This document shows, piece by piece, positions 13,758 through 45,245 of a DNA stretch of 64,000 nucleotides. Under the pieces are notes generated by a model, which made no database searches, was not told where the DNA came from, and saw nothing but the letters and a program-made list of their open reading frames with translations. Within the stretch, counting starts at the first letter, position 1, and each line of letters begins with the position of its first letter. This stretch comes from an uncultured Acidobacteriota bacterium. Lineage in GTDB: Bacteria; Acidobacteriota; Thermoanaerobaculia; Multivoradales; Multivoraceae. The DNA lies in contig CAWKPF010000002.1 in NCBI GenBank assembly GCA_963851415.1, positions 4,438,239 to 4,502,238 on the forward strand, read 5' to 3'. A program made the translations under genes and the position numbers.

Positions 13758-13899
13758 TGCGGTCGGCGGCGGAGGGGGTAGACTGAGCGAACCGTGAGAA
13801 GCCGTTCGCGCGGCCGGAGTCGAGACCGCCAGCGTCTTCGTTGATGCGGCTTCGATGTGGCCCCTGCTCTCACAGAAACCTCTTCGGAAGGACTGCCCC

Positions 13900-29255: not shown

Positions 29256-29350
29256 GGCGAGTCTCGGGCTTCCTCGGAGTGGAGGTAAGAGGGTGAAGGG
29301 AGGACGAAGGTGATCATACCGCCCCCCAGGAGTGGCGTGTTCGGCTACGA

Positions 29351-33118: not shown

Positions 33119-34252
33119 TCAGTCAGCGGAGGTCTCGGCTCCCTGTGCAGACTGCTCTGCGGCCTCCGGAAGATCACTCGTCGCGATGACGAAGTCTCGA
33201 TCGGTGGTCGACTCCGCGCTCAGCGGCAGGTTCGTCACGACCAGGCTGGCCCCGGGGTGGAGCAACGAGAAGAGCTGGTTTCCGATCTCCGGGTCGGCGC
33301 GGATTCTCCCGACGATCTCGGTGTGATAGCTCTCATGGGTCGCACCGGTGGGCAAAGCCACCGCCATCCACAACGGCATGGGCACGTCGGGCGCGAAGGG
33401 ATTGGGCTCGTCGGAGGTGCCCGCGAGAACGGTGGACACGCCGGCGGGCAGTGGTCTCTCCGGGTCCTCGATCTGCAGGGGCACCTGGCCGATCAGGACC
33501 CCACCTCGGTAGATGTGAGCTCGCTGATCGGCGCCGCTGACCACGATTCCGACGGGTCCCTCCGGGGCGACCTCCGGATTCCAGACCACTTCGGCTTCTC
33601 TCTCTCCCGCGCTCTCCCCTTGTTCCAGGCCCTGCAGCGTGGCGGTCGGCAACACCAGGCCGGAATGGGCGATCACCGTAGGGGCCGAGATCTCGTCCGC
33701 GATCACGACCGTACCGCCATCGTCGGTCACTTCGAAGAGCAGGGCCGAGAACGGCTCGGGCATCCGCACGCAGCCGTGCGAGGCCGGGAAGCCCGGGAGT
33801 TTGCCGGCGTGCAGTGCGATACCGGTCCAGGTCAGCCGCTGCATGTTGGGCATGGCCGCGCCGGGAAAGAGATTCGAGACGTGAGTGCGATCCTTCTCCA
33901 GGATGTGGAACACCCCGGTCGGAGTCTCGTGCCCGGTCTTGCCGGTCGAGACTGTCGAGATTCCGATCCGAATGCCATTGCGGTAGACCTTGGCCAACTG
34001 GTCGGGAATGCTCACCAGAATGACCACGGGGCCGCTCGGTGAGATCTGCGGATACCAGCGATACTCCCCCGGACTGAGAGGGAGCGCCGTCTCGTCCAGC
34101 TCCCGCATCAGGTTCTGTTCCTCGGATTGGCGCTCGCCGTCGGTGAGCGTGGACTCTGCGCTGCCGAGGCTCGGATCCTCATCCGGACCGGCGCAGGCGG
34201 TCAGGATGAGCCCGAGGCAGACTACGAGAGGGGCGAATTTCGAATGACGCAT
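33119..34252 (-). CDS. L,D-transpeptidase (YkuD) domain lipoprotein.
   Basis: Lipobox LTAC. YkuD catalytic block ALHAGKLPGFPASHGCVRM. 377 aa. Confidence 0.8.
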   Translation of the reverse strand: MRHSKFAPLVVCLGLILTACAGPDEDPSLGSAESTLTDGERQSEEQNLMRELDETALPLSPGEYRWYPQISPSGPVVILVSIPDQLAKVYRNGIRIGISTVSTGKTGHETPTGVFHILEKDRTHVSNLFPGAAMPNMQRLTWTGIALHAGKLPGFPASHGCVRMPEPFSALLFEVTDDGGTVVIADEISAPTVIAHSGLVLPTATLQGLEQGESAGEREAEVVWNPEVAPEGPVGIVVSGADQRAHIYRGGVLIGQVPLQIEDPERPLPAGVSTVLAGTSDEPNPFAPDVPMPLWMAVALPTGATHESYHTEIVGRIRADPEIGNQLFSLLHPGASLVVTNLPLSAESTTDRDFVIATSDLPEAAEQSAQGAETSAD

Positions 34253-34327
34253 GACATGTCTCCATCTGATTCCGCTGCGAGGCTCACCGTCTGGGACGGA
34301 CCTGAGGCGGCTCGAAGATTCTGTGAA

Positions 34328-35545
34328 CTATTCCGCGTAGATCTGAAGGTCGGTGCCGACTCGGTCGGCGATCTGAAGAGTGGTCGCGAGGTCCGGATGA
34401 CGCACGATGACCCAGCCATCGGAGAGCAACGTGGCCCGCCAGTTGCGCCGGGGAGCACCGGGGGGGAGGAGATCCACCGACACGATGTGATCGCCGCACT
34501 GGGCCATCAGTCGTTCGAGACCTTCGATGCGTTGGATTCGCCCGCGCCCGTGAGCGCGTTTGAAGATCACGGCGGCATTGTAGCGTCGGTCCACGCTCTG
34601 GCCGAAGCTGCCGTGACAAACCGCTTCAGCCCAGCCACGAAAGACGTCGATATCGCAGCCGTAGTTCATCAACTCGACCGAGCGGGCTCCTGGCGGCCGG
34701 CCTCCGATCTCCCCGAAGACGGCTTCCCCGTCGGGGGTGAGGAACCACTCCATGTGCGTGAAGCCGGTGTCGAGCCCGAGGACGTCGAGAACCTTGCGTC
34801 CGAGATCGAGTCCCGGAGCCAGCTTCGGGTCGCCGATCCTGCGTAGGGTCACGGTTTGCGGCGAGATCCACTCGACGTGGCGCGCGATGATCGGCTTGGG
34901 GCGGTACCACGCGATGTTGTCGTAGAGCACCCGACCGTTGGCGCAGATGGTGTCGTAGGTGTACTCCTCCCCCTCGACGAACTCCTCGACGGAGACAGTC
35001 GGTACGTGGCGCAGCAGGGGGAGCAACGTTTCGAGCTCTGCCGCGTCGTCGACCCGGTACGTATCGGCCGATCCGGCGCCTGCGATCGGCTTGATCACCA
35101 GGGGGTAGCCGATGCGCTCCGCGGCCTCACGGCAGCCTTTGGCCGTGCTCTCGCGCGAATGACGGGGGGTGCGGAGACCGGCCTCGTCCAGCAGCTGTTT
35201 CATGCGCTCTTTGTCACGAAGCGGCACGGTCTGCTCGACACTCATCCCCGGTAGACCGGTGGCCTCACGAATCCGTGCGGCGAGCAACATGGTGGGCTCC
35301 CAGAGGGATTCCACCCGGTCGAGGGAGACGCGCCGTGCGTACTCGGTGACCTGATGGACCACGGCCCGCTCGTCGAACAGCGAAGGAACCTGGATGTGGT
35401 CGGAGAGTGCGTGGCGCGTCATCTCGGGCAGGGCGCCTGCGGGCTGGTCCGAAAGTCCGACCACCTCTGCACCGACCTCGGTCAGGCCGCGGGCGAAGAA
35501 AGGCATCTCGGCGGGGAACCCGGGGGCGATCATCAGTACACGCAC
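34328..35545 (-). CDS. ATP-grasp fold carboxylate-amine ligase (L-amino-acid-ligase/ATP-grasp_4-like), paralog 1.
   Basis: GTG start 7 nt after the upstream stop, with gaaggag SD. ATP-grasp-like blocks GYPLVIKPIAGAGSADTYRVDD, VSVEEFVEGEEYTYDT and HMEWFLTPDGEAVFGEIGGRPPG. The N-terminus MRVLMIAPGFP is shared with paralogs 2 and 3. Confidence 0.82.
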   Translation of the reverse strand: MRVLMIAPGFPAEMPFFARGLTEVGAEVVGLSDQPAGALPEMTRHALSDHIQVPSLFDERAVVHQVTEYARRVSLDRVESLWEPTMLLAARIREATGLPGMSVEQTVPLRDKERMKQLLDEAGLRTPRHSRESTAKGCREAAERIGYPLVIKPIAGAGSADTYRVDDAAELETLLPLLRHVPTVSVEEFVEGEEYTYDTICANGRVLYDNIAWYRPKPIIARHVEWISPQTVTLRRIGDPKLAPGLDLGRKVLDVLGLDTGFTHMEWFLTPDGEAVFGEIGGRPPGARSVELMNYGCDIDVFRGWAEAVCHGSFGQSVDRRYNAAVIFKRAHGRGRIQRIEGLERLMAQCGDHIVSVDLLPPGAPRRNWRATLLSDGWVIVRHPDLATTLQIADRVGTDLQIYAE

Positions 35546-35552
35546 GGGGTGA

Positions 35553-36776
35553 CTACTCCTTCAGCTCGACGCGTACGGTCGAAACGATCGTTCGCAGGGC
35601 GCTCTCCACTACGGCGGTCTCGGGGTGGCGGACGATCACGTAGCCCTCTCCCTCGTATCCCGAGGCCGCGGGTTGTCCCTCGCGAGGCAGTTGGGCCTGA
35701 ACCACCAGGTCGCCGACCGCTCGTTGGACCTCTTCGAGGCCGTGTACCGCGACCACTCGTCCCTTGCCCTGGCCGCGAAGAAAGGCCGCACCGGCAGAGT
35801 AGCGCCGCTCGGGAGGATCGAAGGTGTGGTGGATCATCAGCTGCGCCCAGGCCCGATAGAAGTCGAGATCGTGGGCGTAGGAGATCAACGTGGTGATCTG
35901 GGCGCCGGGCGGTCGCGCTGCGACCTCCGAGATCGCGAGGCTGCCGTCGGGGCGCCGGAACCACTCGAGGTGGGTCAGTCCGGTTTCGAGGCCGAGAGCC
36001 GATACGGCGGCGAAGGCGGCCTCGCGAATGTCGTCGTAGCGCGGATCGTCGACCTCCCGAGGCAGCAGCACACACCACTGGATCCACGGATTGCGCAGGA
36101 CGTCCAGGGGGGTCGGCTGGTAGTGCGTGATCGAATGCCAGACCGGAGTCCCTCCGATCGAGACCGAGTCGAACGATTGCTCGTCGCCGAGCACGAACTC
36201 TTCGAGCAGAAGCGGCTGCTGCTGGGAGGGGCGAGTGAAGCCGAGGACTTCGCGCAGCGCGCTCTCGTGGTCGACGCGGTAGGTGCCGGTGGCTCCGGCG
36301 CCGGCCGGGGGCTTCAGCACCAGGGGAAAGCCCGTTGCCCGGGCGAATTCGAGCGCCTCCTCGTCGTTCCGGGCAAGGCGATGGCGGGCACAGGGGATTC
36401 CGGCTCCACGCAGGACGTCCTTCATCCTCGATTTGTCGCGAAAGTTGAGCGCCGTCTCGGTGTCCATTCCCGGAATTCGGAGCTCGTCGCGGGCTCGGGC
36501 CAGGGCGACCTGCATGTGCTCCAGGACTCCGAACAGGCGGTCGAGGCCCCCCAACTGCTGGGCTAGCCCCGACGCGCCCTGCACGAGCTGCTGCCAGTCG
36601 AGCGCGTTGTCGACCCGCCAGTGCCCGTCCAGCGTCTCGCGCAGATCTGCGGGCAGCCGCTCGAGTGGCTCCTGGGTGATCAGCCCCAGGCGCACGCCGT
36701 CCAGCCCAGCCGCAGCGCGGACGAAGCGTTGCGTGGTCGGAGGCAGGTAGGGTGCAACGAAGGCGACGTGGATCAA
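35553..36776 (-). CDS. ATP-grasp fold carboxylate-amine ligase, paralog 2.
   Basis: TTG start (MIHVAFVAPYLP). Blocks GFPLVLKPPAGAGATGTYRVDH, LLEEFVLGDEQSFDS and HLEWFRRPDGSLAISEVAARPPG. It is co-directional with, and immediately upstream of, paralog 1. Confidence 0.8.
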   Translation of the reverse strand: MIHVAFVAPYLPPTTQRFVRAAAGLDGVRLGLITQEPLERLPADLRETLDGHWRVDNALDWQQLVQGASGLAQQLGGLDRLFGVLEHMQVALARARDELRIPGMDTETALNFRDKSRMKDVLRGAGIPCARHRLARNDEEALEFARATGFPLVLKPPAGAGATGTYRVDHESALREVLGFTRPSQQQPLLLEEFVLGDEQSFDSVSIGGTPVWHSITHYQPTPLDVLRNPWIQWCVLLPREVDDPRYDDIREAAFAAVSALGLETGLTHLEWFRRPDGSLAISEVAARPPGAQITTLISYAHDLDFYRAWAQLMIHHTFDPPERRYSAGAAFLRGQGKGRVVAVHGLEEVQRAVGDLVVQAQLPREGQPAASGYEGEGYVIVRHPETAVVESALRTIVSTVRVELKE

Positions 36777-36893
36777 GAGTCCAGTCTACCTTGCGGGCTC
36801 GCTGCGTTGCGAGAGGGCATACGCTGTGAGCGGAATCGGTCCGCGCCGGTCGTCGCGCAGGTATGCTCGGGCTGATCGGAGGTTCTCGAGCTC

Positions 36894-38351
36894 ATGAAGA
36901 TCTGTCTGCTCTGCGCCGAGCTCTCACCCTTCGCCAAGACCGGAGGACTGGGGGACGCCGTCGCCGGCCTGGCTCGCTTTCTTCACGAAAAGAGAGAGCT
37001 GGGTGTGGAGCTGCGCGTATTCCTGCCCGACTACGCCTCGGGCAAGGTAGACCGGGATCGCGTCGTCCCGGTCGACTACCTGCAGGGCCTCTCGACGGTG
37101 ATGGGAGGGCGCCGCTTCTCCTACGATGTCCACACGACGAATCTTCCCGACACCGATCTTCCGGTCTATCTGATCGACTGTCCGGAACTCTACGGTCGTG
37201 CCGGAATCTACGACGATCGGGGCGACGAGCATCAGCGCTTCGCGCTGCTCTCGCGGGCGGCCATCGAATCGTGCCAGGGCATGGGATTCGGCCCCGATGT
37301 GTTCCATTGCCACGACTGGCACGCCGGACTGACGCCGCTCTATCTGCGCACCGAGTACGCGTGGGATCGGCTCTTCTCCTCGAGTGCGACCCTGGTGACG
37401 ATTCACAACATCGCCTATCAGGGTACGTTTCCCGCTCGTGCCGTGGCCGAGGTGGGTCTCGCCCGCTCCGCCGGAGCTCTGCACCAGGAGGACCTGGCTC
37501 ACGGGCGGTTCAGCTTCCTGACTACGGCCATCCTCTATGCCGACTGGCTCTCCACGGTGAGCCGTTCCCACGCCTGGGAGATCCAGACCCCCGAGCTCGG
37601 TTTCGGTCTCGACGCCCTGCTTCGCGAGCGCTCCGATCACCTCTCGGGAATCGTCAACGGGGTCGACTATTCGGAGTGGGATCCTCGCACCGACGAAGTG
37701 ATCGAAGCGCGATACTCGCCGGAGGACCTTTCGGGGAAGGAGACCAATCGTCGCCGGCTGCTCGAGAAGCTCAGGCTCGACTGGGATCCTCATGCTCCGG
37801 TGCTCTCGGTGGTCTCGCGCCTGGTGGCGCAGAAGGGCCTCGATGTTCTGGTCTCTCCCCTACAGGATGCGCTCGGTCATCGCAACGTTCGAGTCGTGGT
37901 GCTGGGCAGCGGCGAGCCGGAGCTGGAGCAGGTGTTCCAGGCGCTCGATCAGCGCTTCCCCGGGCGGATGCGCTTCTATCGGGGCTTCGACAACGACCTG
38001 GCACACGAGATCTACGCCGGGTCCGATGTGTTCCTGATGCCTTCCCGTTACGAGCCGTGTGGCCTGAGCCAGCTCTACAGTCTGCGTTATGGAACCCCCC
38101 CCCTCGTGCACCGCACGGGAGGACTGGCAGATACCGTGGAGCTCTACGATTCGGCCCACGGCACCGGCACCGGATTCGTGTTCGATCATCTCGACGATCG
38201 TGCCGTGCGTTGGGCTCTGGGCTACGCCCTCGACAGCTACGCCGATCGCGAGGGCTGGCAGCGGCTGATGCGCAACGGAATGGCGAAGGACTTCTCCTGG
38301 GCGGTGCAAGGGGAGCGCTACCTCGAGCTCTACCGCTCCCTGGCGAGGTAA
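36894..38351 (+). CDS. glgA: Glycogen synthase (ADP-glucose-dependent starch/glycogen synthase).
   Basis: MKICLLCAELSPFAKTGGLGDAVAGLARFL N-terminus (KTGGL motif). C-terminal GT-B blocks GSDVFLMPSRYEPCGLSQLYSLRYGTPPLVHRTGGLADTV. 485 aa. Confidence 0.92.
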   Translation: MKICLLCAELSPFAKTGGLGDAVAGLARFLHEKRELGVELRVFLPDYASGKVDRDRVVPVDYLQGLSTVMGGRRFSYDVHTTNLPDTDLPVYLIDCPELYGRAGIYDDRGDEHQRFALLSRAAIESCQGMGFGPDVFHCHDWHAGLTPLYLRTEYAWDRLFSSSATLVTIHNIAYQGTFPARAVAEVGLARSAGALHQEDLAHGRFSFLTTAILYADWLSTVSRSHAWEIQTPELGFGLDALLRERSDHLSGIVNGVDYSEWDPRTDEVIEARYSPEDLSGKETNRRRLLEKLRLDWDPHAPVLSVVSRLVAQKGLDVLVSPLQDALGHRNVRVVVLGSGEPELEQVFQALDQRFPGRMRFYRGFDNDLAHEIYAGSDVFLMPSRYEPCGLSQLYSLRYGTPPLVHRTGGLADTVELYDSAHGTGTGFVFDHLDDRAVRWALGYALDSYADREGWQRLMRNGMAKDFSWAVQGERYLELYRSLAR

Positions 38352-38372
38352 CCCGGCCTCTGGCTCGCTGGT

Positions 38373-39101
38373 TCAGGCCAGCTCGTCGAGGTACTTCGGG
38401 AGCATCGCGCGCCAGGTCATCCAGTCGTGGTCCCACTCGGGTCCCCACGGATCGACCCGATTGGGGATTCCCTTGGCGCCCAGCACCGAAGCGGCCCGCC
38501 ACGACTGTCCGGGATCTTCCCACCGACCCTCGCCCGTGGGAAACACCACGAAACGCTCGCGGAGCTTCGAGAGTTGCTCGCTCTCCCCGAGGTCGGGAAG
38601 GTAGTGTAGCGGCGAGGAGAAGTAGAAGTCCTGGTTCATTTCTCCGTCGAGCCAGCGGGTGAGATCGTACGTCCCGCTCATGCAGATCGCCGTCTTGAAC
38701 GCGTCGGGATGCCGGCAGATCGCGGCGAGTGCGTTGAAGGCACCGATCGAGGCGCCGGCGGTCACGATCTCGATCGCGTCCGCTTCGCAATCTCGGCGGA
38801 TCGCCGGCACCAGCTCTTCGTAGATGAAGCGATCGAACTGGTTCTGCACCCAGGATCGGTGATGGGCGCTGCCCTCTCCGGAGCTCCAGGCCCGGCCTGC
38901 GACGCTGTCGCAGGAGTAGAGCTTGATGCGACCGGCCTCGATCAGCGGCGTCAGGACCTTCACCATCAGGAAACGCTCGCACTCCTCCGCATCGCCTCCT
39001 GCGGTGGGGAAGAGCAGGACGGGTGTGCCGTACGTGCCCCAGCGTGCAATGGCGATCTGTTGTCGCAAGTGCTGCGAGTACCAGTCGGTCTTGAGTTTCA
39101 T
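38373..39101 (-). CDS. Putative esterase (alpha/beta hydrolase, esterase-D/Fes-like PF00756-type).
   Basis: ATG at 39101 lies 14 nt after the upstream stop. Sequence MKLKTDWYSQ...TPVLLFPTAGGDAEE...VTAGASIGAFNALAAICRHPDAF is typical of this family. The ORF-track extension to 39236 overlaps the upstream gene and is rejected. Confidence 0.72.
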   Translation of the reverse strand: MKLKTDWYSQHLRQQIAIARWGTYGTPVLLFPTAGGDAEECERFLMVKVLTPLIEAGRIKLYSCDSVAGRAWSSGEGSAHHRSWVQNQFDRFIYEELVPAIRRDCEADAIEIVTAGASIGAFNALAAICRHPDAFKTAICMSGTYDLTRWLDGEMNQDFYFSSPLHYLPDLGESEQLSKLRERFVVFPTGEGRWEDPGQSWRAASVLGAKGIPNRVDPWGPEWDHDWMTWRAMLPKYLDELA

Positions 39102-39114
39102 CTCGTCTTCCTCG

Positions 39115-40359
39115 TCAGGCGCTCGGGTCGCCTTCTTCCTCTCGCCACAGTTGGATCTGGCTCCAGAAGTGGTCGACGAAGTGATCCACCTCGTGCTCCG
39201 GGAAGAGTGACTCGACCTTGAGGCGCACCGCCTCACGAGCGCGGTCGGAGCCGAAGAAATCGTAGGAGACCTCGTCGAGGTTGCCGAGATGGGTCGCGCA
39301 GAATTCGTCGAAGCGATCGACGTCGAAGTGCTTCCTGGCGATCGCGGCGTAGCCGGCGAGTTTCTCGCGGTAGGGCACGTCGCGAGCAGCGATCTCGTAG
39401 TACGGCGCCCAGTCCAGGTTCTGGCGCATCGGTCGATCGGTGACCGCGCAAAACAGGCTCCAGCGAATCAGCGACTTCACGAGCCAGGGGAAGTGGTAGT
39501 GCAGGCTCGTGACCTGGGAATCGGGGCACGCGTTGGCGAAGTCGATGGGGTGGAACTCGCCGTCCTGGCGCAGGGACTCGCACGAGTTGAAGTCCCAGCC
39601 GAAGAAGCTGTTGATGGTCAGCGTCATCTCTGCCAGCAGGGCCTCCTCCTCGGCGCTCAAGAAATCGTGCGCCACCTCGTAGCGTGCGTGCAGGGGAGCG
39701 CTCGGCTCGTAGCGCACCGCTCTTACCTGCGGCCCTACACCGATCGCTCGCACGAAGAGGTCGAAGGGGTCGATGGCCTCCTGGAAGTGAAGGAGTCGAA
39801 TCTCGCTTTCGTCGTAGCGTTGGCGTAGCTGCTCTTCGTTCTCGATGCGCTCGACCCCGACCCAGGCACCACCGTCGTACGGCTTCATGAACAGGGGGTA
39901 GCCGAGCTCCTTGCCGATCACTCCGAGGTCGAAGAGCCGTGCATACTGGCGCAACGTGGACTCGAGGTCGACACTCGGCTCGTAGGATTTGGGAGGCACC
40001 AGCCAGGTATCGGGTACTGGCATGCCGAGCCTCATCATGGCGCAGTAGGTGGTCTGCTTCTCCATGGACTGGATCGACCAGGGATTGTTGAGCACGTAGA
40101 GATCGTCCATCAGGATCGACTTCTTGATCCACTCACGGCTGGTCTTGTACCAGTGGGTGAGCCGGTCCAGGACCACGTCGTAGCGACAGGGCTGTCGAAG
40201 TGAGAAGGGCTCGATCGAGACCCGCTCGACTTCGATCTTCACGGTGTCGCCCGCCATCGGAACGGCGAGGTCGAGGCGGGATACGATCTCTTCGTAGCAG
40301 ATCGGCCAGCACAGGTCGGCACCGAGAGACAATCCGATGCGGCGTTGGATCTCAGCCAT
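39115..40359 (-). CDS. Divergent ATP-grasp-like ligase (RimK/GshB-like core), 414 aa.
   Basis: ATG preceded by ggggtagagg. The central block ELGYPLFMKPYDGGAWVGVERIENEEQLRQRYD resembles the ATP-grasp nucleotide-binding region. The protein is richer in W, F, Y and K than its neighbours. It is unrelated in sequence to the three ~405-aa paralogs. Confidence 0.65.
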   Translation of the reverse strand: MAEIQRRIGLSLGADLCWPICYEEIVSRLDLAVPMAGDTVKIEVERVSIEPFSLRQPCRYDVVLDRLTHWYKTSREWIKKSILMDDLYVLNNPWSIQSMEKQTTYCAMMRLGMPVPDTWLVPPKSYEPSVDLESTLRQYARLFDLGVIGKELGYPLFMKPYDGGAWVGVERIENEEQLRQRYDESEIRLLHFQEAIDPFDLFVRAIGVGPQVRAVRYEPSAPLHARYEVAHDFLSAEEEALLAEMTLTINSFFGWDFNSCESLRQDGEFHPIDFANACPDSQVTSLHYHFPWLVKSLIRWSLFCAVTDRPMRQNLDWAPYYEIAARDVPYREKLAGYAAIARKHFDVDRFDEFCATHLGNLDEVSYDFFGSDRAREAVRLKVESLFPEHEVDHFVDHFWSQIQLWREEEGDPSA

Positions 40360-40402
40360 GACCTCTACCCCTGTTCACGTAGCTCTGGTTTGTTCGTGAC
40401 AT

Positions 40403-41542
40403 CTATTCGTAGACCATCCAGAGCGGCCCCGGGAAGAGCCAGGAGAGTCCCTCGCGCAGTCGATCCCGCCAGTTCTCCCAGTTGTGGCCGTCCCGCGCCT
40501 CGACGTAGCGCACCTCGGCGCCGGTCGATTGCATCAGGGGAAGGAGAGATCGATTCTCGTAGATCAGTGACTCGTAGACACCGCAGCTCATGAAGACCCG
40601 GTCGGCCGGTCGTTGGCCCTCGAGACGGAATCGTCTCATGAATCGCACCACCGGATCGAAGGCCGGGCCTCGGTCATGTCGGAAGCCGACATCGCTGAAG
40701 GCGAAGGAGCCCGACTGCAGGAGCAGCCGAGAGAACGTTCCGGGATGCTCGGAAGCGGCGGCGAGTGCGGCCACCGCGCCGAAGCTCGCCCCCATCAACG
40801 CACGCGCGGAGGCGTTCTGCTTGATCGGTAGCTTCGCTTCGAGCTCCGGCAGGAGCTCCTCTGCCAGGAATCGACCGTGTCGAGGGTCTGCGCCGTACTC
40901 GATCAGCCGATCGGGAGACTGGATCAAGGCCACCACGGGTGGCTCGATCTCGAGTCGTTCGATCAGGTTGTCGAGCACTGTCTGGAGGTTGGCGTAGCGC
41001 AGGTAGTCCTCTCCATCGTGCACGATCAGGAGCGGATGCCGTCGACGCGGACGATGTCGGGCGGGGAGGTAGAGCTGTACTTCGCGGCGATCGCCGAACA
41101 CGTCGCTGTCGATGGCGAGTCGGGCCATCTCGCCCTTTCGGCTCGTCGGGTCGGGCTGGGTCCAGGTCGGGACCTCGTAGCCTTCTCCATGGAGGACCGA
41201 GTTCGCGCCGAAGGGATCGTGAGCCTTCACCGGGTTGAGGGGATCGCGGATCCAGCGGTGGCGTCGCCCCTTGACGACATCGATCTTGTACTCGATGCGG
41301 GACTGGCGCGGAATCTCGAGCTCGAGCACCCAGAGCTCGCTGTCCCCGACCCTCCGGAAGGCCTGTTCCGACGGCAGTCCGTGGATCCAGTGGCGCAGGA
41401 GCACGCGGTCCGCTTCTCCTCGGTAGACCAGGGTGGCCGTGGTTCCCCGCACCGACGGGAACGTCTCGGTCTCGAGGAGTCGGTCGATCGCCTCGGCGGA
41501 GGGCGACTCGTCGGCCTCGAGCTCGCGGAGGATCTCGGTCAT
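40403..41542 (-). CDS. Enterochelin-esterase (Fes)-like esterase with N-terminal Ig/E-set-like domain.
   Basis: The ATG overlaps the upstream stop (ATGA). An N-terminal beta-domain (ATLVYRGEADRVLLRHWIHGL...EYKIDVV) is followed by an esterase core (HPLLIVHDGEDY..., LMGASFGAVAALAAASEHPGTF). Confidence 0.75.
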   Translation of the reverse strand: MTEILRELEADESPSAEAIDRLLETETFPSVRGTTATLVYRGEADRVLLRHWIHGLPSEQAFRRVGDSELWVLELEIPRQSRIEYKIDVVKGRRHRWIRDPLNPVKAHDPFGANSVLHGEGYEVPTWTQPDPTSRKGEMARLAIDSDVFGDRREVQLYLPARHRPRRRHPLLIVHDGEDYLRYANLQTVLDNLIERLEIEPPVVALIQSPDRLIEYGADPRHGRFLAEELLPELEAKLPIKQNASARALMGASFGAVAALAAASEHPGTFSRLLLQSGSFAFSDVGFRHDRGPAFDPVVRFMRRFRLEGQRPADRVFMSCGVYESLIYENRSLLPLMQSTGAEVRYVEARDGHNWENWRDRLREGLSWLFPGPLWMVYE

Positions 41543-42555
41543 CGGCTCGGCCCCTCGTTGCCGGTCCGACTCGCCAGGGTCGGAGCCTCCGGCTCGACGG
41601 ATTCGACTTCGCCGCTCGGCAGCAGCAGATCGACTCCGCCGGCGATCCAGGGACGGGCCGCCCCCGCTTGCGTCTCGATGCGCAACCAGCTCTCCTCGTT
41701 CATTCCGATGCAGCGGCTGGGGGCGAAGCGACGAGAGAGGAGGGACACTCGAGTCCGGTCTTCGAGACGGAGTCGTCGACGGGCGTGGGGAAAGGGTTGG
41801 ATCGCCGGGGCCCGATCCGCGAAGGGAAGTCGGAGGCCGTCGTCGAGCACTTCGGCGTTGCCGGCACCCCAGGGAGGAGAGTCGTGAAACAGCACGATCC
41901 GGGGGGCGAGCACCATCGCGCCGGCCGACACGGCGAGAATCGTCTTCTCGGCCAGGGTTCGCGCGAGCCCGAAGAGTCGCAGTCGGGTCAGCAGCACGGC
42001 GACGTGCCCTCCGGCGATCACCACCGCAGAAGCGTCGGCGAGCCGCGCCTCGATCTCGCGCTGCTCTCGAATCACCGACTCACGCTCCGTGGGCCGGGCC
42101 TGCTCGTCGAACTCCCGTTGCACCGAGCGCACCCGCTCCTGATGGTGACGGTCGAGAGCACGAACGGCCTCGAGCGCATCCTCCAGTTCCCCGGCCAGGA
42201 GATCCGCGCCCTCCGCCTCACCTCGTGGACCGAGCACCTCGAGCTCACGGACCGCGCCGACCGCGTGATCGAGACGGCGTCGGTAGAGCGCCTGCAAACG
42301 TTCGAGGCGTCGTTGGCGCTCCCGGTGGGCCTGGAAGAGATCCGGATCCTCCTCGAAGCAGCGCTCGGCACGGGCGTACAACTCCAGCGGTAGAGTCTGC
42401 GATCCAACGGCAGCGTCGAGCTCGGCCGTTTCGGCCTCGGCCTGGAGCCACCCTGCCGTGATCGCGGCGATCGGGGGGTCGAGCCCCAGCGCCTCGACGT
42501 GGGCGTGTAGTGTCGGCCGCAGCCGCTGGGGTCCCAGCATCACGATGGTGGTCAT
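41539..42555 (-). CDS. Peptidase S51-like (cyanophycinase / dipeptidase E family) protein.
   Basis: Blocks AVVIAGGHVAVLLTRLRLFGL and ILAVSAGAMVLAP resemble the S51 GG(G/N) and nucleophile-Ser regions. 338 aa. The assignment rests on weak motifs only. Confidence 0.55.
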   Translation of the reverse strand: MTTIVMLGPQRLRPTLHAHVEALGLDPPIAAITAGWLQAEAETAELDAAVGSQTLPLELYARAERCFEEDPDLFQAHRERQRRLERLQALYRRRLDHAVGAVRELEVLGPRGEAEGADLLAGELEDALEAVRALDRHHQERVRSVQREFDEQARPTERESVIREQREIEARLADASAVVIAGGHVAVLLTRLRLFGLARTLAEKTILAVSAGAMVLAPRIVLFHDSPPWGAGNAEVLDDGLRLPFADRAPAIQPFPHARRRLRLEDRTRVSLLSRRFAPSRCIGMNEESWLRIETQAGAARPWIAGGVDLLLPSGEVESVEPEAPTLASRTGNEGPSR

Positions 42556-42587
42556 GGCGGCCCTTTATAATGGATTGAGGTCTCACA

Positions 42588-43808
42588 ATGCACGTACTGT
42601 TCGTCGAGCCGGCGTTTCCTGCCAACCAGGGCCGCTTCGTTCACGCCCTGGCCGAGATCGGCGCCACGGTCACCGCGATCGGTGAGGCGCCGGCGGGCGC
42701 TCTTCCCGGTGCCCTGAAGAGTCGGCTGCACGGGTACGAACAGGTCGGATCGGTGTGCGACGAGGGCGCGCTGCTCGATGCCGTTCGCCGAATCCAGGGA
42801 CGGGGGTGGGTCGACCGGCTGGAGGCCACTGTCGAGGCACACGTGCTGCCGACCGCGCGCGTGCGCGAGGCGACGGGTATTCCCGGCACCTCGGTGCACA
42901 CGGCTTATCTGTGTCGTGACAAACCAGCCATGAAGGAGGCGCTGCGTGAAGCCGGGGTCGCGTGTGCCGCCTCGACCGGGGTAGCGAGTCTCGACGAGGC
43001 CCACAGCTTCGCCGAGCGGGTCGGCTTTCCCCTGATCGTCAAGCCCAGGGGCTCGGCGGGAGCGGCCGGAACCGATCGGGTCGACGACCTGGACCAGTTG
43101 GACACCTCCCTGGCTTCTCACGGAGTCGGCCGGGGAGGAGAGGCGGCGCTCGAGGAGTTCGTCGAAGGCCACGAGGCGTTCTTCGACACGTTGACCGTCA
43201 ATGGAGAGATTCGCCATACCTTCATCAGTCACTACTACCCCGGTGTGCTCGAGGCGATGCGCACACGCTGGATCTCTCCCTACCTGATCACCACGAATCG
43301 CGCCGACGCCGACACCTATGCAGAAGTCCACGAGATGGGGCGACTCGTCAACGAAGCGCTGGGGATCCGCACCTCTGCCACCCACATGGAGTGGTTCTTC
43401 GGACCGAAAGGTCTCCGTTTCTCCGAGATCGGCTGTCGTCCCCCCGGTGTCCTGACCTGGGACCTCTACTCGGCCGCCAACGACTTCGACCTCTACCGGG
43501 AGTGGGCGCTGGCGGTCACCCAGGGGCGCTGCGAGGCACGGTTGTCCCGCCGGTACTCCGCGGCGTTGCTGAACTTTCGGCCGGATCGGGACGGTCGAAT
43601 CGTCGGCTACGAAGGGTTGGACTGGCTCGAGCACGAGCTCGGCGAGTGGGTCATCGACAGCCGCTTTCCGTCTCCGGGCACTCCGACCCAGCCGGTCGAG
43701 GCGGGATACATGGCCAACGCCTGGGTGCGGGTGCGCCATCCCGACTACGATCGGCTGCGCGAACTGCTCGACGAAGCCGGTCGACGGGTGCAGGTCAGGG
43801 CTGGCTGA
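42588..43808 (+). CDS. ATP-grasp fold carboxylate-amine ligase, paralog 3.
   Basis: ATG preceded by gagg, with a TATAAT-like box 20 nt upstream. MHVLFVEPAFP N-terminus. Blocks GFPLIVKPRGSAGAAGTDRVDD, LEEFVEGHEAFFDT and HMEWFFGPKGLRFSEIGCRPPG. Confidence 0.82.
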   Translation: MHVLFVEPAFPANQGRFVHALAEIGATVTAIGEAPAGALPGALKSRLHGYEQVGSVCDEGALLDAVRRIQGRGWVDRLEATVEAHVLPTARVREATGIPGTSVHTAYLCRDKPAMKEALREAGVACAASTGVASLDEAHSFAERVGFPLIVKPRGSAGAAGTDRVDDLDQLDTSLASHGVGRGGEAALEEFVEGHEAFFDTLTVNGEIRHTFISHYYPGVLEAMRTRWISPYLITTNRADADTYAEVHEMGRLVNEALGIRTSATHMEWFFGPKGLRFSEIGCRPPGVLTWDLYSAANDFDLYREWALAVTQGRCEARLSRRYSAALLNFRPDRDGRIVGYEGLDWLEHELGEWVIDSRFPSPGTPTQPVEAGYMANAWVRVRHPDYDRLRELLDEAGRRVQVRAG

Positions 43809-43951
43809 GCACCCTCTCGGTTTCTCCTCAGATCCCTCGGGGGAACCGGTGGCGCCGAAGCAGCGGTCGGCGCGGTACACTGCGGCAGTCGGCAAGCCGT
43901 GCAACCGCCAGTACTCGGGGCCTTTGCGGTCCGTTGGCAGAGGGAGTGCCC

Positions 43952-45223
43952 GTGAAAGACGTCGCGACCATCATCATGGGCGGAGGCCAGGGAGCCCGGC
44001 TCTTTCCACTGACTCGAGATCGCGCCAAGCCCGCCGTGCCGGTGGCGGGGCGGGCGAGGCTGATCGACGTTCCGCTCTCGAACTGCATCAACTCGGGTCT
44101 GACCCGGATCGCGGTGCTGACGCAGTTCAATTCGGCATCGTTGAACCGGCACGTGTCGCGCACCTACAACTTCGGGAGCCTTCTTCCCTGGGGCGTGGAG
44201 GTGCTGGCCGCGGAGCTCACCAGCGAGAATCCGAACTGGTTCCAGGGCACGGCCGATGCGGTGCGGCGCAACATGAAGCACGTGATCGACAGCGAGACCC
44301 GGCTGGTCCTGATTCTGGCCGGTGATCATCTCTACCGAATGGACTACCGCCCGTTCCTGGAACGACACCAGAGCAGCGGCGCCGACATCACGATCTCGGT
44401 GTGTCCGGTGAGTGCGGAGCACGCGTCGAGCTTCGGCCTGGTGCACTGTGACGACGAGGGGATCATCACGCGATTCGCCGAGAAGCCGACCGGTGACGAG
44501 TTGGAGGCGATGCGCGTCGACCCGTCGGCTCCGCTGGCCGGGGGAGCACCGATCGGCGCGCCCTATCTGGCTTCGATGGGAATCTATGTCTTCAACCCCG
44601 AGGTCCTCGTCGACCTGTTGAACTCCAATCCCGGCCAGCACGACTTCGGCAAGGAGCTGATCCCCGAAGCCCTCCACGCGCATCGGGTCGCCGTACACAC
44701 CTTCAAGGGGTACTGGGAAGACATCGGCACGATCGGCGCCTTCTATCGTGCCAACCTGGCGATCGGATTCGACGGCTACTCGCTCTACGATCCGGACTTC
44801 CCGCTCTACACCCGGCCGCGCTACCTCTCGCCCACCACGATGAACGACGCCCGGGTCGACGCCTCGTTGATCGCGGAAGGCAGCCGCATCGGCTCGGCGC
44901 GGATTCACGCTTCGGTCGTCGGAATTCGCTCACTCATCGGCGACGGGGTCGTTCTCGACGGCGCGCTGGTGATGGGCAACGACTCCTACGAGACGGCGGC
45001 CGAAGCGACTCGCCACCGGATGCAGAGGCTGCCGCCGATGGGAATCGGAGACGGCACGATGGTGCGCCGTGCGATTCTCGACAAAGGGGTTCGGATCGGA
45101 CGCAACGTCCGCATCGTCAACGTGGACGGTGTCGAAGAGCGGGATGCGTCGAACTACTACATCCGCAACGGCATCGTCATCGTTCCCAAGCTCGCAGTGA
45201 TCCCCGACGATACGGTGATCTGA
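43952..45223 (+). CDS. glgC: Glucose-1-phosphate adenylyltransferase.
   Basis: GTG at 43952 preceded by gggag. IIMGGGQGARLFPLTRDRAKPAVPVAGRARLIDVPLSNCINSG is a classic GlgC N-terminus, and the C-terminus has a left-handed beta-helix. The ORF-track start at 42962 is a spurious extension that overlaps ATP-grasp paralog 3. Confidence 0.88.
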   Translation: MKDVATIIMGGGQGARLFPLTRDRAKPAVPVAGRARLIDVPLSNCINSGLTRIAVLTQFNSASLNRHVSRTYNFGSLLPWGVEVLAAELTSENPNWFQGTADAVRRNMKHVIDSETRLVLILAGDHLYRMDYRPFLERHQSSGADITISVCPVSAEHASSFGLVHCDDEGIITRFAEKPTGDELEAMRVDPSAPLAGGAPIGAPYLASMGIYVFNPEVLVDLLNSNPGQHDFGKELIPEALHAHRVAVHTFKGYWEDIGTIGAFYRANLAIGFDGYSLYDPDFPLYTRPRYLSPTTMNDARVDASLIAEGSRIGSARIHASVVGIRSLIGDGVVLDGALVMGNDSYETAAEATRHRMQRLPPMGIGDGTMVRRAILDKGVRIGRNVRIVNVDGVEERDASNYYIRNGIVIVPKLAVIPDDTVI

Positions 45224-45245
45224 GAGCCGGGGCAGCCCGCTCGAT

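What the first reader, a model, noticed from the sequence alone, without database searches (positions are those of the whole stretch)
34328..45223. Glycogen synthase and ADP-glucose pyrophosphorylase split by an ATP-grasp ligase / S51 peptidase / esterase gene block: candidate uncharacterised storage-compound system
In most genomes glgC and glgA are adjacent. Here they are separated by about 5.6 kb (38352-43951) that encodes a four-gene minus-strand operon: S51 cyanophycinase/PepE-like peptidase, Fes-like esterase, a 414-aa divergent ATP-grasp-like protein, and a second esterase. ATP-grasp paralog 3 lies divergently and co-directional with glgC. Two further ~405-aa ATP-grasp paralogs (34328..36776) lie divergently upstream of glgA. 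The three paralogs share N-termini (MRVLMIAPGFP / MIHVAFVAPYLP / MHVLFVEPAFP) and catalytic-core blocks typical of L-amino-acid-ligase-type ATP-grasp enzymes. The gene boundaries show tight coupling: ATGA and GTGA overlaps, and gaps of 7 and 14 nt. Pairing several carboxylate-amine ligases with a cyanophycinase-family peptidase resembles a synthesis/degradation pair for a peptide or poly-amino-acid reserve. Its interleaving with glgA, glgC, glgP, malQ, glgX and a GH13 enzyme suggests co-regulation with, or chemical modification of, the alpha-glucan reserve, for example aminoacylation or peptide decoration of glucan, with the esterases removing ester-linked groups. I know of no described system with this composition.
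Basis: partly seen in the sequence, partly recalled or inferred. Interest (0 to 1): 0.82.

Follow-up and report, generated by a model that had tools for sequence, protein, structure and literature searches.

The report
Glycogen-synthase-linked ATP-grasp ligase/hydrolase cluster
Next to its glycogen synthase gene, this bacterium carries four ATP-dependent ligase genes and three hydrolase genes; the same set recurs around that gene in at least seven bacterial phyla and appears undescribed, so it probably marks an unknown pathway tied to carbon storage.

Summary
Window 34328-45223 encodes three paralogous L-amino-acid-ligase-type ATP-grasp proteins (A1, A2, A3), GlgA, GlgC, and a tightly packed minus-strand operon: S51 peptidase, Fes-like esterase (Est1), a 414-aa protein (AGL), small esterase (Est2). 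A structure model shows AGL is a fourth, RimK-like ATP-grasp enzyme.

The set is not peculiar to this genome. In 80 loci from one-genome-per-species contigs, Est1-AGL-Est2 are contiguous in 58. A3 is present in 46, and 33 of those carry a GT5 glycogen synthase, 25 of them directly upstream of A3. Gene order is shuffled between lineages, yet the genes stay together. GlgC is not part of the conserved set.

No ligase reaches any curated family cut-off. AGL has no Pfam family. Seven full-text searches found no description.

The product cannot be read from sequence. My best guess (0.4) is an intracellular Asp/Glu-type peptide oligomer or polymer, made by the ligases and degraded by the hydrolases, following cyanophycin CphA/CphB logic and co-expressed with glycogen synthesis. 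Rivals are covalent amino-acid decoration of the glucan and C-terminal tailing of a protein. Interest is high.

The parts
34328..35545 (-). A1: L-amino-acid-ligase-type ATP-grasp paralog, 405 aa
   Evidence: Pfam ATP-grasp_3, ATPgrasp_N and ATP-grasp_4. No NCBIfam family reaches its cut-off. Orthologs at 49-70% identity in 34 of 80 loci. Catalytic K152, E187/E188, H264, E266, E279 and R283 are shared by all three paralogs.
35553..36776 (-). A2: L-amino-acid-ligase-type ATP-grasp paralog, 407 aa; 7 nt upstream of A1
   Evidence: Pfam ATP-grasp and LAL_C2. Best PDB sequence matches are the L-amino-acid ligases 4wd3 (2.9e-14) and 3vot (3.8e-12). Orthologs at 44-74% identity in 32 of 80 loci.
36894..38351 (+). 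glgA: GT5 ADP-glucose-type glycogen synthase, 485 aa; a conserved member of the cluster
   Evidence: TIGR02095 507.6 bits against a cut-off of 328.45. Pfam Glyco_transf_5. The KTGGL and EPCGL motifs are conserved. A GT5 gene is present in 33 of 46 A3-containing loci, and in 25 it lies directly upstream of A3.
38373..39101 (-). Est2: small PF00756 alpha/beta-hydrolase esterase, 242 aa (start ATG 39101)
   Evidence: Pfam Esterase 44.4 bits. The GASIG nucleophile motif, SGT.D and H.W..WR are conserved in 46 sequences. Adjacent to AGL in 68 of 80 loci. A GAGGAAG motif lies ahead of the ATG.
39115..40359 (-). AGL: RimK-like ATP-grasp enzyme with an extra C-terminal helical domain, 414 aa; the most conserved protein of the cluster
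40403..41542 (-). Est1: Fes-like two-domain esterase, 379 aa, no signal peptide, with a near-invariant C-terminus ...PGPLWMVYE
   Evidence: Pfam Esterase 88.4 bits. Enterochelin_N reaches its cut-off in several orthologs. PDB enterochelin esterase 2.4e-11. NCBIfam PRK10439 scores 103.5 against a cut-off of 222. The GASFG serine and the His are conserved. C-termini are shown.
41539..42555 (-). S51-family (type 1 glutamine-amidotransferase-like) hydrolase, 338 aa, with a helical hairpin insert of about 115 aa; its stop overlaps the Est1 start (ATGA)
   Evidence: Pfam PF03575 26.7 bits against a cut-off of 23.9. AlphaFold model pLDDT 89. Foldseek top hits are dipeptidase E, PepE and cyanophycinase. 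S210 is invariant and H257 at least 90% conserved in the homolog alignment. In the locus alignment S210 is Ser, Cys or Thr and H257 is present in 18 of 27. Junction sequence.
42588..43808 (+). A3: L-amino-acid-ligase-type ATP-grasp paralog, 406 aa; the paralog usually coupled to glgA
   Evidence: Pfam CPSase_L_D2, ATP-grasp and LAL_C2. Orthologs at 56-73% identity in 46 of 80 loci. Length is a very uniform 406 aa, and source names are only generic or automatic.
43952..45223 (+). glgC: glucose-1-phosphate adenylyltransferase, 423 aa; a neighbour here but not a conserved cluster member
   Evidence: NF002772 579.6 bits against a cut-off of 537. Found near the cluster in only 5 of 80 loci.

Best explanation
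This is a conserved eight-gene module: A1, A2, A3, AGL, S51, Est1, Est2 and glgA.

Proposed mechanism:
- Four ATP-grasp carboxylate ligases build an intracellular, non-ribosomal, amino-acid-derived oligomer or polymer, most likely rich in Asp/Glu-type residues. AGL (RimK-like) acts as the chain-extending ligase. The three L-amino-acid-ligase-type paralogs each make one distinct bond, either a building block or a side branch.
- Three cytoplasmic serine hydrolases take the product apart again. The S51 enzyme cleaves the Asp-type peptide bond. The two PF00756 esterases cleave the remaining ester or amide links.
- The module is transcriptionally coupled to glycogen synthase, so the compound is made when glycogen is made, as a nitrogen/amino-acid reserve parallel to the carbon reserve. 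This is the same logic as cyanophycin synthetase/cyanophycinase.

Shown: gene identities, folds, conservation of catalytic residues, conservation of the cluster and of its linkage to glgA.
Inferred: the substrate class, the division of labour among the enzymes, and the storage role.
For: 1. Four ligases with intact ATP-grasp catalytic residues and three hydrolases with intact nucleophile and His motifs.
2. A1-A3 are closest to dipeptide-forming L-amino-acid ligases (the LAL_C2 and ATPgrasp_N hits). AGL is closest in fold to RimK, which extends a chain with Glu.
3. The S51 fold is confirmed. From established knowledge, every characterised S51 enzyme (PepE, cyanophycinase) cleaves at Asp.
4. The ligase-S51 pairing is older than this cluster. 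Two distant AGL-like lineages sit directly downstream of S51 genes with no esterases present. This mirrors the cphB-cphA pairing.
5. In Myxococcota and Acidimicrobiia a further amide ligase (GCS2 glutamate-cysteine-ligase family plus CBS domains) follows Est2.
6. On reading the N-termini, none of the proteins appears to have a signal peptide, and no transporter recurs in the cluster. So the product most likely stays in the cytoplasm.
7. The eight families co-localise in at least five different gene orders across Acidobacteriota, Myxococcota, Planctomycetota, Gammaproteobacteria, Gemmatimonadota, Acidimicrobiia and Eisenbacteria. This argues for selection for co-expression with glgA.
8. Sequence conservation is very high (AGL 60-75% between phyla). 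This is typical of core metabolism rather than secondary metabolism.
Against: - No substrate is identified, and all the chemistry is inferred from superfamily membership.
- The synthetase AGL is co-transcribed with three hydrolases. That is odd for a simple make/break pair and could instead mean the hydrolases act as processing enzymes or transferases.
- glgA-A3 start/stop abutment (gaps of -1 to about 90 nt) suggests a tighter link to the glucan than mere co-regulation.
- The canonical S51 His is replaced in 9 of 27 orthologs, and the acid residue is not cleanly aligned.
- PF00756 enzymes are typically esterases, not peptidases.
- No Mur-ligase-type domain is present, unlike true cyanophycin synthetase.
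Confidence: 0.4

Rival explanations
1. Covalent decoration of the alpha-glucan. The ATP-grasp ligases activate amino-acid or peptide carboxylates as acyl phosphates and esterify them to glucose hydroxyls, or to the reducing end, of the chain GlgA makes. Est1 and Est2 remove the ester-linked groups and S51 trims the peptide part.
For: - glgA is a conserved cluster member. It lies directly upstream of A3 in 25 of 46 A3-containing loci, often with abutting stop and start codons.
- Even divergent substitutes next to the cluster are GT5 enzymes.
- A distant AGL relative lies four genes downstream of a GT5 gene in an unrelated lineage.
- Two of the three hydrolases belong to an esterase family, PF00756.
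- Est1's PDB matches after Fes are ferulic acid esterases (6rzo, 8bbp). From my own knowledge, these are CE1 enzymes that act on polysaccharide esters.
- Established knowledge: ATP-grasp enzymes can form esters (VanA D-Ala-D-lactate, graspetide ligases), and acylated cytoplasmic alpha-1,4-glucans exist (mycobacterial MGLP).
Against: - No ATP-grasp enzyme is known to acylate a sugar hydroxyl.
- The S51-Est1-AGL-Est2 block, and in cultured Nannocystis the whole seven-gene set, occur without a glgA within 10 kb.
- The Est1 N-domain matches Enterochelin_N. Its hits to the starch-binding module CBM_20 are only sub-threshold (E 0.007-0.06).
- No carbohydrate-binding module was detected in any of the ligases.
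Confidence: 0.22
2. A writer/eraser cycle on a protein C-terminus. AGL (RimK-, LysX- or TTL-like) adds amino acids to the C-terminal Glu of a protein, with Est1, encoded just upstream, as the leading candidate. S51 removes them. The tail regulates the hydrolases or glycogen metabolism.
For: - Est1 ends in a near-invariant ...PGPLWMVYE-COOH in 43 of 49 ORFs from many phyla, always terminating at that residue.
- Est1 and AGL are adjacent in 66 of 80 loci.
- A distant AGL relative lies next to a MATCAP-family (PF08014) gene. From my own knowledge, MATCAP is a tubulin C-terminal tyrosine carboxypeptidase.
Against: - S51-AGL-like pairs exist with no Est1.
- Several cluster proteins have well-conserved C-termini, so the Est1 tail may be structural.
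- This model gives no role to A1-A3 or to the glgA linkage.
- Characterised S51 enzymes are not C-terminal carboxypeptidases.
Confidence: 0.12
3. Unrelated genes that merely sit together, or ordinary housekeeping ATP-grasp enzymes (PurT, PurK, Ddl, CarB) mis-read as something special.
For: - Automatic JGI names for A3 homologs include PurT, PurK and CarB.
- ATP-grasp genes are common in bacterial genomes.
Against: - NCBIfam scores are far below the equivalog cut-offs: purT 26.9 against 502, purK 27-33 against 318, Ddl 21-39 against 243.
- The same eight families co-localise in dozens of species from at least seven phyla despite rearranged gene order.
- A single-copy gene would lie within 10 kb of another by chance in roughly 0.5% of 4-Mb genomes. 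The observed figure for glgA is 22 of 43 full-flank loci.
Confidence: 0.03

Closest known systems
Cyanophycin system (CphA synthetase with CphB/CphE cyanophycinase)
   Same: - An ATP-grasp ligase gene paired with an S51-family hydrolase gene.
- All proteins appear cytoplasmic.
- Plausible reserve logic.
- The S51 fold is confirmed.
- The S51-AGL pairing also recurs in distant lineages.
   Different: - No Mur-ligase-like M domain and no CphA N domain.
- TIGR02068 scores only 26-37 bits against a cut-off of 850.
- There are four separate ligases instead of one multidomain synthetase.
- There are two extra PF00756 esterases.
- The S51 protein carries a helical insert of about 115 aa, and its His is not universally conserved.
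- The cluster is linked to glgA.
L-amino-acid ligases (BacD/YwfE, RizA, BL00235)
   Same: - A1-A3 share the three-domain layout: pre-ATP-grasp N domain, ATP-grasp, LAL_C2.
- Their best solved relatives are RizA (4wd3) and BL00235 (3vot).
- The catalytic Lys, Glu and Arg are conserved.
   Different: - Only distant similarity (E 1e-14 to 1e-7).
- The known enzymes are single genes in antibiotic or dipeptide pathways. Here there are three ancient paralogs, each with its own orthologs across phyla, set in a glycogen context.
- Substrates are unknown.
RimK / LysX / ArgX, and the tubulin TTL-MATCAP cycle (ATP-grasp tailing of protein C-termini)
   Same: - A hydrolase partner is encoded next to it.
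- The neighbouring Est1 has an invariant C-terminal Glu.
- A distant AGL relative lies next to a MATCAP-family gene.
   Different: - 13-17% sequence identity.
- rimK_fam and LysX models score at or below 19 bits against cut-offs of 143-276.
- AGL has an extra helical domain of about 120 aa.
- No LysW-like carrier gene fits in the intergenic gaps.
- The target is unknown.
Enterochelin esterase Fes/IroD and CE1 polysaccharide esterases
   Same: Est1 has the same two-domain layout: an Enterochelin_N beta-sandwich followed by a PF00756 alpha/beta hydrolase. Its Ser and His are conserved.
   Different: - Below the Fes equivalog cut-off (103.5 against 222).
- No siderophore synthesis or uptake genes nearby.
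- No signal peptide on reading the N-terminus.
- Est1 has a conserved -VYE terminus. As far as I recall the E. coli Fes sequence does not end this way; I did not check it with a tool.
Mycobacterial methylglucose lipopolysaccharide (MGLP), an acylated cytoplasmic alpha-1,4-glucan (from my own knowledge, not tested here)
   Same: It is a precedent for a cytoplasmic alpha-1,4-glucan made by a GlgA-like transferase that carries ester-linked acyl groups and is serviced by esterases.
   Different: MGLP acylation uses acyl-CoA transferases, not ATP-grasp ligases. It also needs methyltransferases and a glucosylglycerate primer, and none of these is in this cluster.

Membership tests
Cyanophycin synthetase/cyanophycinase system | Synthetase with an ATP-grasp G domain fused to a Mur-ligase-like M domain (TIGR02068 / PRK14016) | tested here: not met
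   A1-A3 match only about 90 residues of TIGR02068, at 26-37 bits against a cut-off of 850. No Mur-ligase domain was found in any cluster protein.
Cyanophycin synthetase/cyanophycinase system | S51 hydrolase with a Ser-His-Glu triad | tested here: inconclusive
   The fold is S51 and PF03575 is above its cut-off. The nucleophile Ser is invariant and is Ser, Cys or Thr. The His is at least 90% conserved but present in only 18 of 27. The acid position is Asp in most orthologs and N286-E287 in the window protein.
Cyanophycin synthetase/cyanophycinase system | Product is multi-L-arginyl-poly-L-aspartate | not testable with these tools
   Needs biochemistry.
L-amino-acid ligases (ATP-grasp, BacD/RizA type) | ATPgrasp_N + ATP-grasp + LAL_C2 architecture, with solved L-amino-acid ligases as nearest relatives | tested here: met
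   ATPgrasp_N scores 27.8 against 27 in A1. LAL_C2 scores 25.3 and 18.6 in A2 and A3, below the 29.4 cut-off but covering the full domain. The top PDB sequence hits for A2 are 4wd3 and 3vot.
L-amino-acid ligases (ATP-grasp, BacD/RizA type) | Forms an alpha-dipeptide from two free L-amino acids | not testable with these tools
   Needs an enzyme assay.
Housekeeping ATP-grasp families (PurT, PurK, Ddl, CarB, biotin carboxylase) | Score above the NCBIfam equivalog cut-off | tested here: not met
   Across the 25 best NCBIfam matches listed for each of A1-A3, the highest score is 81.3 bits and all are far below their cut-offs of 143-1027. For AGL all matches are at or below 21 bits.
RimK / LysX / ArgX family | Sequence membership (TIGR00768, TIGR02144) | tested here: not met
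   AGL scores 18.7 bits on LysX_arch against a cut-off of 275.6, and rimK_fam is not among its matches.
RimK / LysX / ArgX family | ATP-grasp fold closest to RimK | tested here: met
   [not shown]
Peptidase family S51 | Pfam PF03575 above the gathering score, and the S51 fold | tested here: met
   26.7 bits against 23.9. The Foldseek top 18 hits are all S51 structures.
Enterochelin esterase (Fes) | NCBIfam PRK10439 equivalog score, and a siderophore gene context | tested here: not met
   103.5 bits against a cut-off of 222. No siderophore or TonB genes recur in the loci.
Glycogen synthase GlgA (GT5, ADP-glucose type) | TIGR02095 above its cut-off; KTGGL and EPCGL motifs | tested here: met
   507.6 bits against 328.45. 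The motifs are conserved in 30 cluster-linked orthologs.
ADP-glucose pyrophosphorylase GlgC | NF002772 above its cut-off | tested here: met
   579.6 bits against 537.

The most novel reading that the evidence does not exclude
The cluster makes a previously unknown hybrid storage material. In this reading, glycogen (or a short alpha-glucan) is covalently decorated with amino acids or short peptides. ATP-grasp ligases attach them through ester bonds, and dedicated esterases and an S51 peptidase remove them. That would be a combined carbon-nitrogen reserve, widespread in sediment and soil bacteria.
Probability: 0.2. Interest if true: 0.92.

Novelty: new variant of a known kind. Interest (0 to 1): 0.78.

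Why it matters
Storage polymers (glycogen, PHA, polyphosphate, cyanophycin) shape how environmental bacteria survive feast and famine. Only a handful of kinds are known.

This is an eight-gene module with four ligases of unassigned specificity. Its core protein has no Pfam family, yet has thousands of homologs at 60-75% identity across at least seven phyla. These include globally abundant sediment groups such as Woeseiaceae, Thermoanaerobaculia, Pirellulaceae and Kofleriaceae. The module is genetically tied to glycogen synthase.

Whichever reading is right, it points to unrecognised chemistry in core carbon/nitrogen storage: a cyanophycin-like peptide reserve, an amino-acid-decorated glucan, or a protein-tailing switch on glycogen metabolism.

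It is directly testable. The cluster occurs in cultured Nannocystis and is small enough for heterologous expression.

Tried and rejected
- Pfam and NCBIfam scans of all ten proteins gave no specific family for A1-A3 or AGL.
- PDB sequence searches for AGL, S51 and Est2 gave only marginal motif-level hits.
- An Rfam scan of the whole window found nothing, so no riboswitch points to a ligand.
- The promoter/terminator consensus scan of 33900-45600 was uninformative: 0 promoters and 1 terminator-like site, below the shuffle expectation.
- Seven full-text literature searches combining ATP-grasp with glycogen synthase, glgA, S51, esterase and amino-acid ligase found nothing relevant. The Iyer et al. 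2009 amidoligase survey could not be opened, so I could not check whether it mentions this gene neighbourhood.
- Genes inserted inside some clusters (DUF2239, MGMT, beta-lactamase, PEP-CTERM, flotillin/NfeD) looked random and were discarded.
- I tested whether the Est1 N-domain is a starch or glycogen-binding module. It gave only sub-threshold CBM_20 hits (E 0.007-0.06), and Enterochelin_N fits better.
- I looked for GlgA-A3 fusion proteins among the top 120 A3 homologs and found none convincing. One 635-aa entry is probably a miscalled start.
- I looked for acidic C-terminal tails on neighbours of the distant S51-AGL pairs and saw nothing clear.
- Looking up the window's own contig by the AGL protein failed, so the organism is inferred only from best hits (Holophagae/Acidobacteriota, 75%).

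Full report
**What is in the window**

The region 34328-45223 lies in a uniformly GC-rich stretch (64-68% GC), with no compositional break. ORF listing and translation combined with Pfam and NCBIfam scans give the following genes.

| Gene | Coordinates | Strand | Length | Identity |
|---|---|---|---|---|
| A1 | 34328-35545 | - | 405 aa | ATP-grasp paralog |
| A2 | 35553-36776 | - | 407 aa | ATP-grasp paralog |
| glgA | 36894-38351 | + | 485 aa | TIGR02095, 507.6 bits against cut-off 328 |
| Est2 | 38373-39101 | - | 242 aa | PF00756 esterase |
| AGL | 39115-40359 | - | 414 aa | ATP-grasp by structure |
| Est1 | 40403-41542 | - | 379 aa | PF00756 plus a Fes-type N domain |
| S51 | 41539-42555 | - | 338 aa | PF03575, 26.7 bits against 23.9 |
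| A3 | 42588-43808 | + | 406 aa | ATP-grasp paralog |
| glgC | 43952-45223 | + | 423 aa | NF002772, 579.6 bits against 537 |

Downstream lie a 794-aa GH13-like gene, a DUF3417-type glucan phosphorylase, malQ and a CBM48/GH13 debranching-type gene.

A1, A2 and A3 are true paralogs, 33-38% identical over their full length (A1 vs A3 E = 3e-86). AGL is not one of them. The S51 stop and Est1 start overlap as ATGA. AGL and Est2 are 13 nt apart, with a GAGGAAG ribosome-binding motif between them. A2 and A1 are 7 nt apart.

glgC starts at 43952. I found no GTGA overlap. Some long ORFs on other frames (for example 39233-40132) are spurious.

**What the proteins are**

A1-A3 hit generic ATP-grasp models plus ATPgrasp_N and LAL_C2. 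For A2, the paralog I searched, the nearest solved relatives by sequence are the L-amino-acid ligases RizA (4wd3, 2.9e-14), BL00235 (3vot) and BacD. The ATP-binding Lys, the EEF hinge, and the H-x-E-W-F and E-x-x-x-R-P-P-G motifs are shared by all three paralogs and kept in their orthologs. No curated NCBIfam family comes near its cut-off: purT 26.9 against 502, purK 27-33 against 318, Ddl 29-39 against 243, cyanophycin synthetase 26-37 against 850. They are not housekeeping enzymes.

The S51-like protein models well (pLDDT 89). Its 18 best Foldseek hits are all S51 structures: dipeptidase E, PepE, cyanophycinase and pseudo-CphB. A helical hairpin of about 115 residues is inserted at residues 59-174. 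The nucleophile serine in the W-S-A-G-A-M elbow is invariant among 32 database homologs and is Ser, Cys or Thr in 27 locus orthologs. The canonical His (H257) is at least 90% conserved in the first set but present in only 18 of 27 in the second. The acid position is mostly Asp, and reads N286-E287 in the window protein. The family assignment is sound. The complete triad is plausible but not proven.

Est1 and Est2 keep the G-A-S-x-G serine and the H-x-W-x-x-W-R histidine motif. Est1 resembles enterochelin esterase (PDB 2.4e-11) but falls below the Fes equivalog cut-off. On reading their N-termini, none of the proteins appears to have a signal peptide.

**Conservation elsewhere**

AGL has more than 7400 database homologs at 67-76% identity among the best 120. 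They are almost all unnamed and come from Acidobacteriota, Phycisphaerae and Myxococcota.

I scanned one genome per species (GTDB representatives) with an AGL profile. They come from Acidobacteriota, Myxococcota, Planctomycetota, Gammaproteobacteria (Woeseiaceae, Steroidobacteraceae), Gemmatimonadota, Acidimicrobiia, Eisenbacteria and some Alphaproteobacteria.

I then called ORFs in all loci and clustered them de novo. Exactly eight families recur widely, and they are the eight genes of the window: AGL, Est1, Est2, A3, S51, glgA, A1 and A2. tblastn counts over the 80 loci are as follows.

| Feature | Loci |
|---|---|
| Est1-AGL adjacent | 66 |
| AGL-Est2 adjacent | 68 |
| Est1-AGL-Est2 contiguous | 58 |
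| S51-Est1-AGL-Est2 contiguous | 43 |
| A3 present | 46 |
| A3 present with a GT5 glycogen-synthase gene in the held sequence | 33 |
| glgA directly upstream of A3 on the same strand (gaps -1 to about 90 nt in most) | 25 |
| A1 and A2 both present | 26 |
| glgC present | 5 |

Many loci are short contigs, so these are lower bounds. Even the low-identity 'glgA' hits in L034 and L082 are GT5 enzymes.

A1, A2 and A3 each have their own orthologs (49-74% identity), while cross-paralog hits are 30-38%. The triplication therefore predates the spread of the cluster.

Gene order differs between lineages:
- Woeseiaceae: A2> S51> Est1> AGL> Est2> A1< glgA> A3>
- Kofleriaceae: glgA> A3> S51> Est1> AGL> Est2> ... 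A1< A2>
- Planctomycetota: A3< glgA< A2> A1> S51> Est1> AGL> Est2>
- Mariniblastus, Acidimicrobiia and Gemmatimonadota: A1< A2< A3> (S51>) Est1> AGL> Est2> (no S51 hit in the two Acidimicrobiia loci)
- Acidobacteriota, as in the window: A3< S51> Est1> AGL> Est2> glgA< A2> A1>

Clustering that survives rearrangement is strong evidence for a shared function. It does not, but the conserved partner is glgA, not glgC.

The four-gene block can also stand alone (L001). Cultured Nannocystis carries seven of the genes with no glgA within 10 kb.

**Extra clues**

- In Myxococcota and Acidimicrobiia, a GCS2-family carboxylate-amine ligase follows Est2 in 12 loci; the two Myxococcota examples scanned carry two CBS domains, the shorter Acidimicrobiia ORF scanned (L042) showed only a weak GCS2 match. 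It is absent from the window. This is a further amide-bond-forming enzyme.
- A profile search of 1.84 billion representatives found 317 clusters at E of 1e-30 or better. Full-length distant relatives of AGL sit immediately downstream of long S51 genes in two different lineages (L087, L093/94). One sits next to a MATCAP-family gene (L086). One sits four genes downstream of a GT5 glycogen synthase (L090-92). The ligase-S51 pairing is therefore older than the eight-gene cluster.
- Est1 ends in a nearly invariant ...WLFPGPLWMVYE, and 43 of 49 ORFs stop exactly after -YE.
- No Rfam element and no consensus promoter or terminator helps define regulation.

**How it most likely works**

Shown: four catalytically intact ATP-grasp enzymes, three catalytically intact serine hydrolases, no apparent signal peptides, no conserved transporter, and a conserved genetic link to glycogen synthase.

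Inferred: ATP-grasp enzymes activate a carboxylate as an acyl phosphate and join it to an amine, or more rarely a hydroxyl. L-amino-acid-ligase-type enzymes join amino acids. RimK-type enzymes extend a chain. All characterised S51 enzymes cut at aspartate.

The simplest reading is an intracellular peptide-type oligomer or polymer of acidic amino acids. AGL and A1-A3 would make it, and S51, Est1 and Est2 would dismantle it. It would be expressed together with GlgA as a second reserve, following the logic of cyanophycin synthetase/cyanophycinase but with unrelated, split enzymes. I put this at 0.4.

The RimK-like fold of AGL, the invariant Est1 C-terminal Glu and the MATCAP neighbour suggest a protein C-terminal tailing cycle (0.12). 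Chance juxtaposition or housekeeping enzymes are essentially excluded (0.03). The remainder is unassigned.

**Comparison with known systems, and novelty**

The cluster works like a cyanophycin system but fails its defining test. There is no Mur-ligase M domain, and TIGR02068 scores 26-37 bits against 850.
- A1-A3 are members of the broad L-amino-acid-ligase structural class, but of no characterised family.
- AGL is RimK-like in fold only.
- Est1 is Fes-like but is not Fes.
- GlgA and GlgC are canonical.

Seven full-text searches found no paper linking ATP-grasp enzymes with glgA or glycogen synthase in bacteria, or with S51 in such a cluster. The one survey most likely to mention it (Iyer et al. 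2009) could not be read.

I classify it as a new variant of a known kind: a ligase/hydrolase pair for a non-ribosomal peptide reserve. If the glucan-decoration reading is right, it would be categorically new.

**Verdict**

The finding is real, widespread, apparently uncharacterised and experimentally tractable. Interest 0.78.

Noticed in passing
window 40403-40441 (C-terminal codons of Est1, minus strand) and Est1 orthologs in L001-L083: Est1 ends in a near-invariant ...WLFPGPLWMVYE. 43 of 49 ORFs from many phyla stop exactly after -YE, and a few end in -YD or -YM. An invariant terminal Glu next to a RimK-like ligase gene is suggestive of C-terminal modification.
   Followed up: partly
L007:11430-13919, L079:11945-13918, L042:11983-13506 and 9 other loci: In Myxococcota and Acidimicrobiia, a protein of about 650-830 aa (ORF lengths as called, starts uncertain; L042 is 507 aa) from the GCS2 glutamate-cysteine-ligase family follows Est2 directly; the two Myxococcota examples scanned carry two CBS domains. 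It is absent from this window.
   Followed up: partly
L087:5305-7991; L093:6540-9230; L086:4118-7837; L090:4738-9275: Distant AGL-like proteins (other 50%-identity clusters) lie directly after long S51 genes (464-486 aa), with a shared HEAT/DUF3806 pair upstream. One lies next to a MATCAP (PF08014) gene. One lies four genes downstream of a GT5 glycogen synthase.
   Followed up: partly
window 45246-47630 (-): This 794-aa protein between glgC and glgP has only weak, partial alpha-amylase and hDGE_amylase matches (38 and 19 bits) and reaches no NCBIfam cut-off. It is an unassigned GH13-like enzyme and is not conserved next to the cluster in other loci.
   Followed up: no
window 41539-42555 (-), residues 59-174: The S51 protein carries a long, confidently modelled helical hairpin inserted into the S51 fold. 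In 9 of 27 orthologs the canonical His is replaced by Asp, Asn, Gln or Ser, while a different His (H224, in LFHD) is invariant.
   Followed up: partly
Est1 orthologs' N-terminal domains (L001, L053, L019, L037, L082): Besides Enterochelin_N, the N-domains give repeated sub-threshold hits to the starch-binding module CBM_20 (E 0.007-0.06). They are too weak to count as evidence, but they recur in five of the six orthologs tested (not in the window protein or L042).
   Followed up: partly
L025 (CAYURO010000002.1, labelled Enterobacteriaceae MAG) vs L023 (Myxococcales MAG): The two loci have the same architecture and the same identities to the window proteins. The Enterobacteriaceae label is probably a binning or taxonomy error.
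   Followed up: no
window 28356-31090: A class IV (D-amino-acid/branched-chain) aminotransferase (28356-29255, -) and an M1 aminopeptidase (29351-31090, +) lie 3-6 kb upstream of the cluster, followed by a GGDEF protein and a YkuD L,D-transpeptidase. They are not conserved with the cluster elsewhere.
   Followed up: no
window 13855-16047 (+), 20416-21732 (+): These large ORFs have coding-type GC3 (730 and 438 aa) but no Pfam match at E of 1e-4 or better.
   Followed up: no
window 42556-42587: Only 32 nt separate the divergent S51 and A3 start codons. The spacer contains a perfect TATAAT 16 nt ahead of the A3 ATG and a GAGG motif. Either the leaders are very short or the S51 start lies further downstream (conservation begins around residue 6-7).
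   Followed up: no
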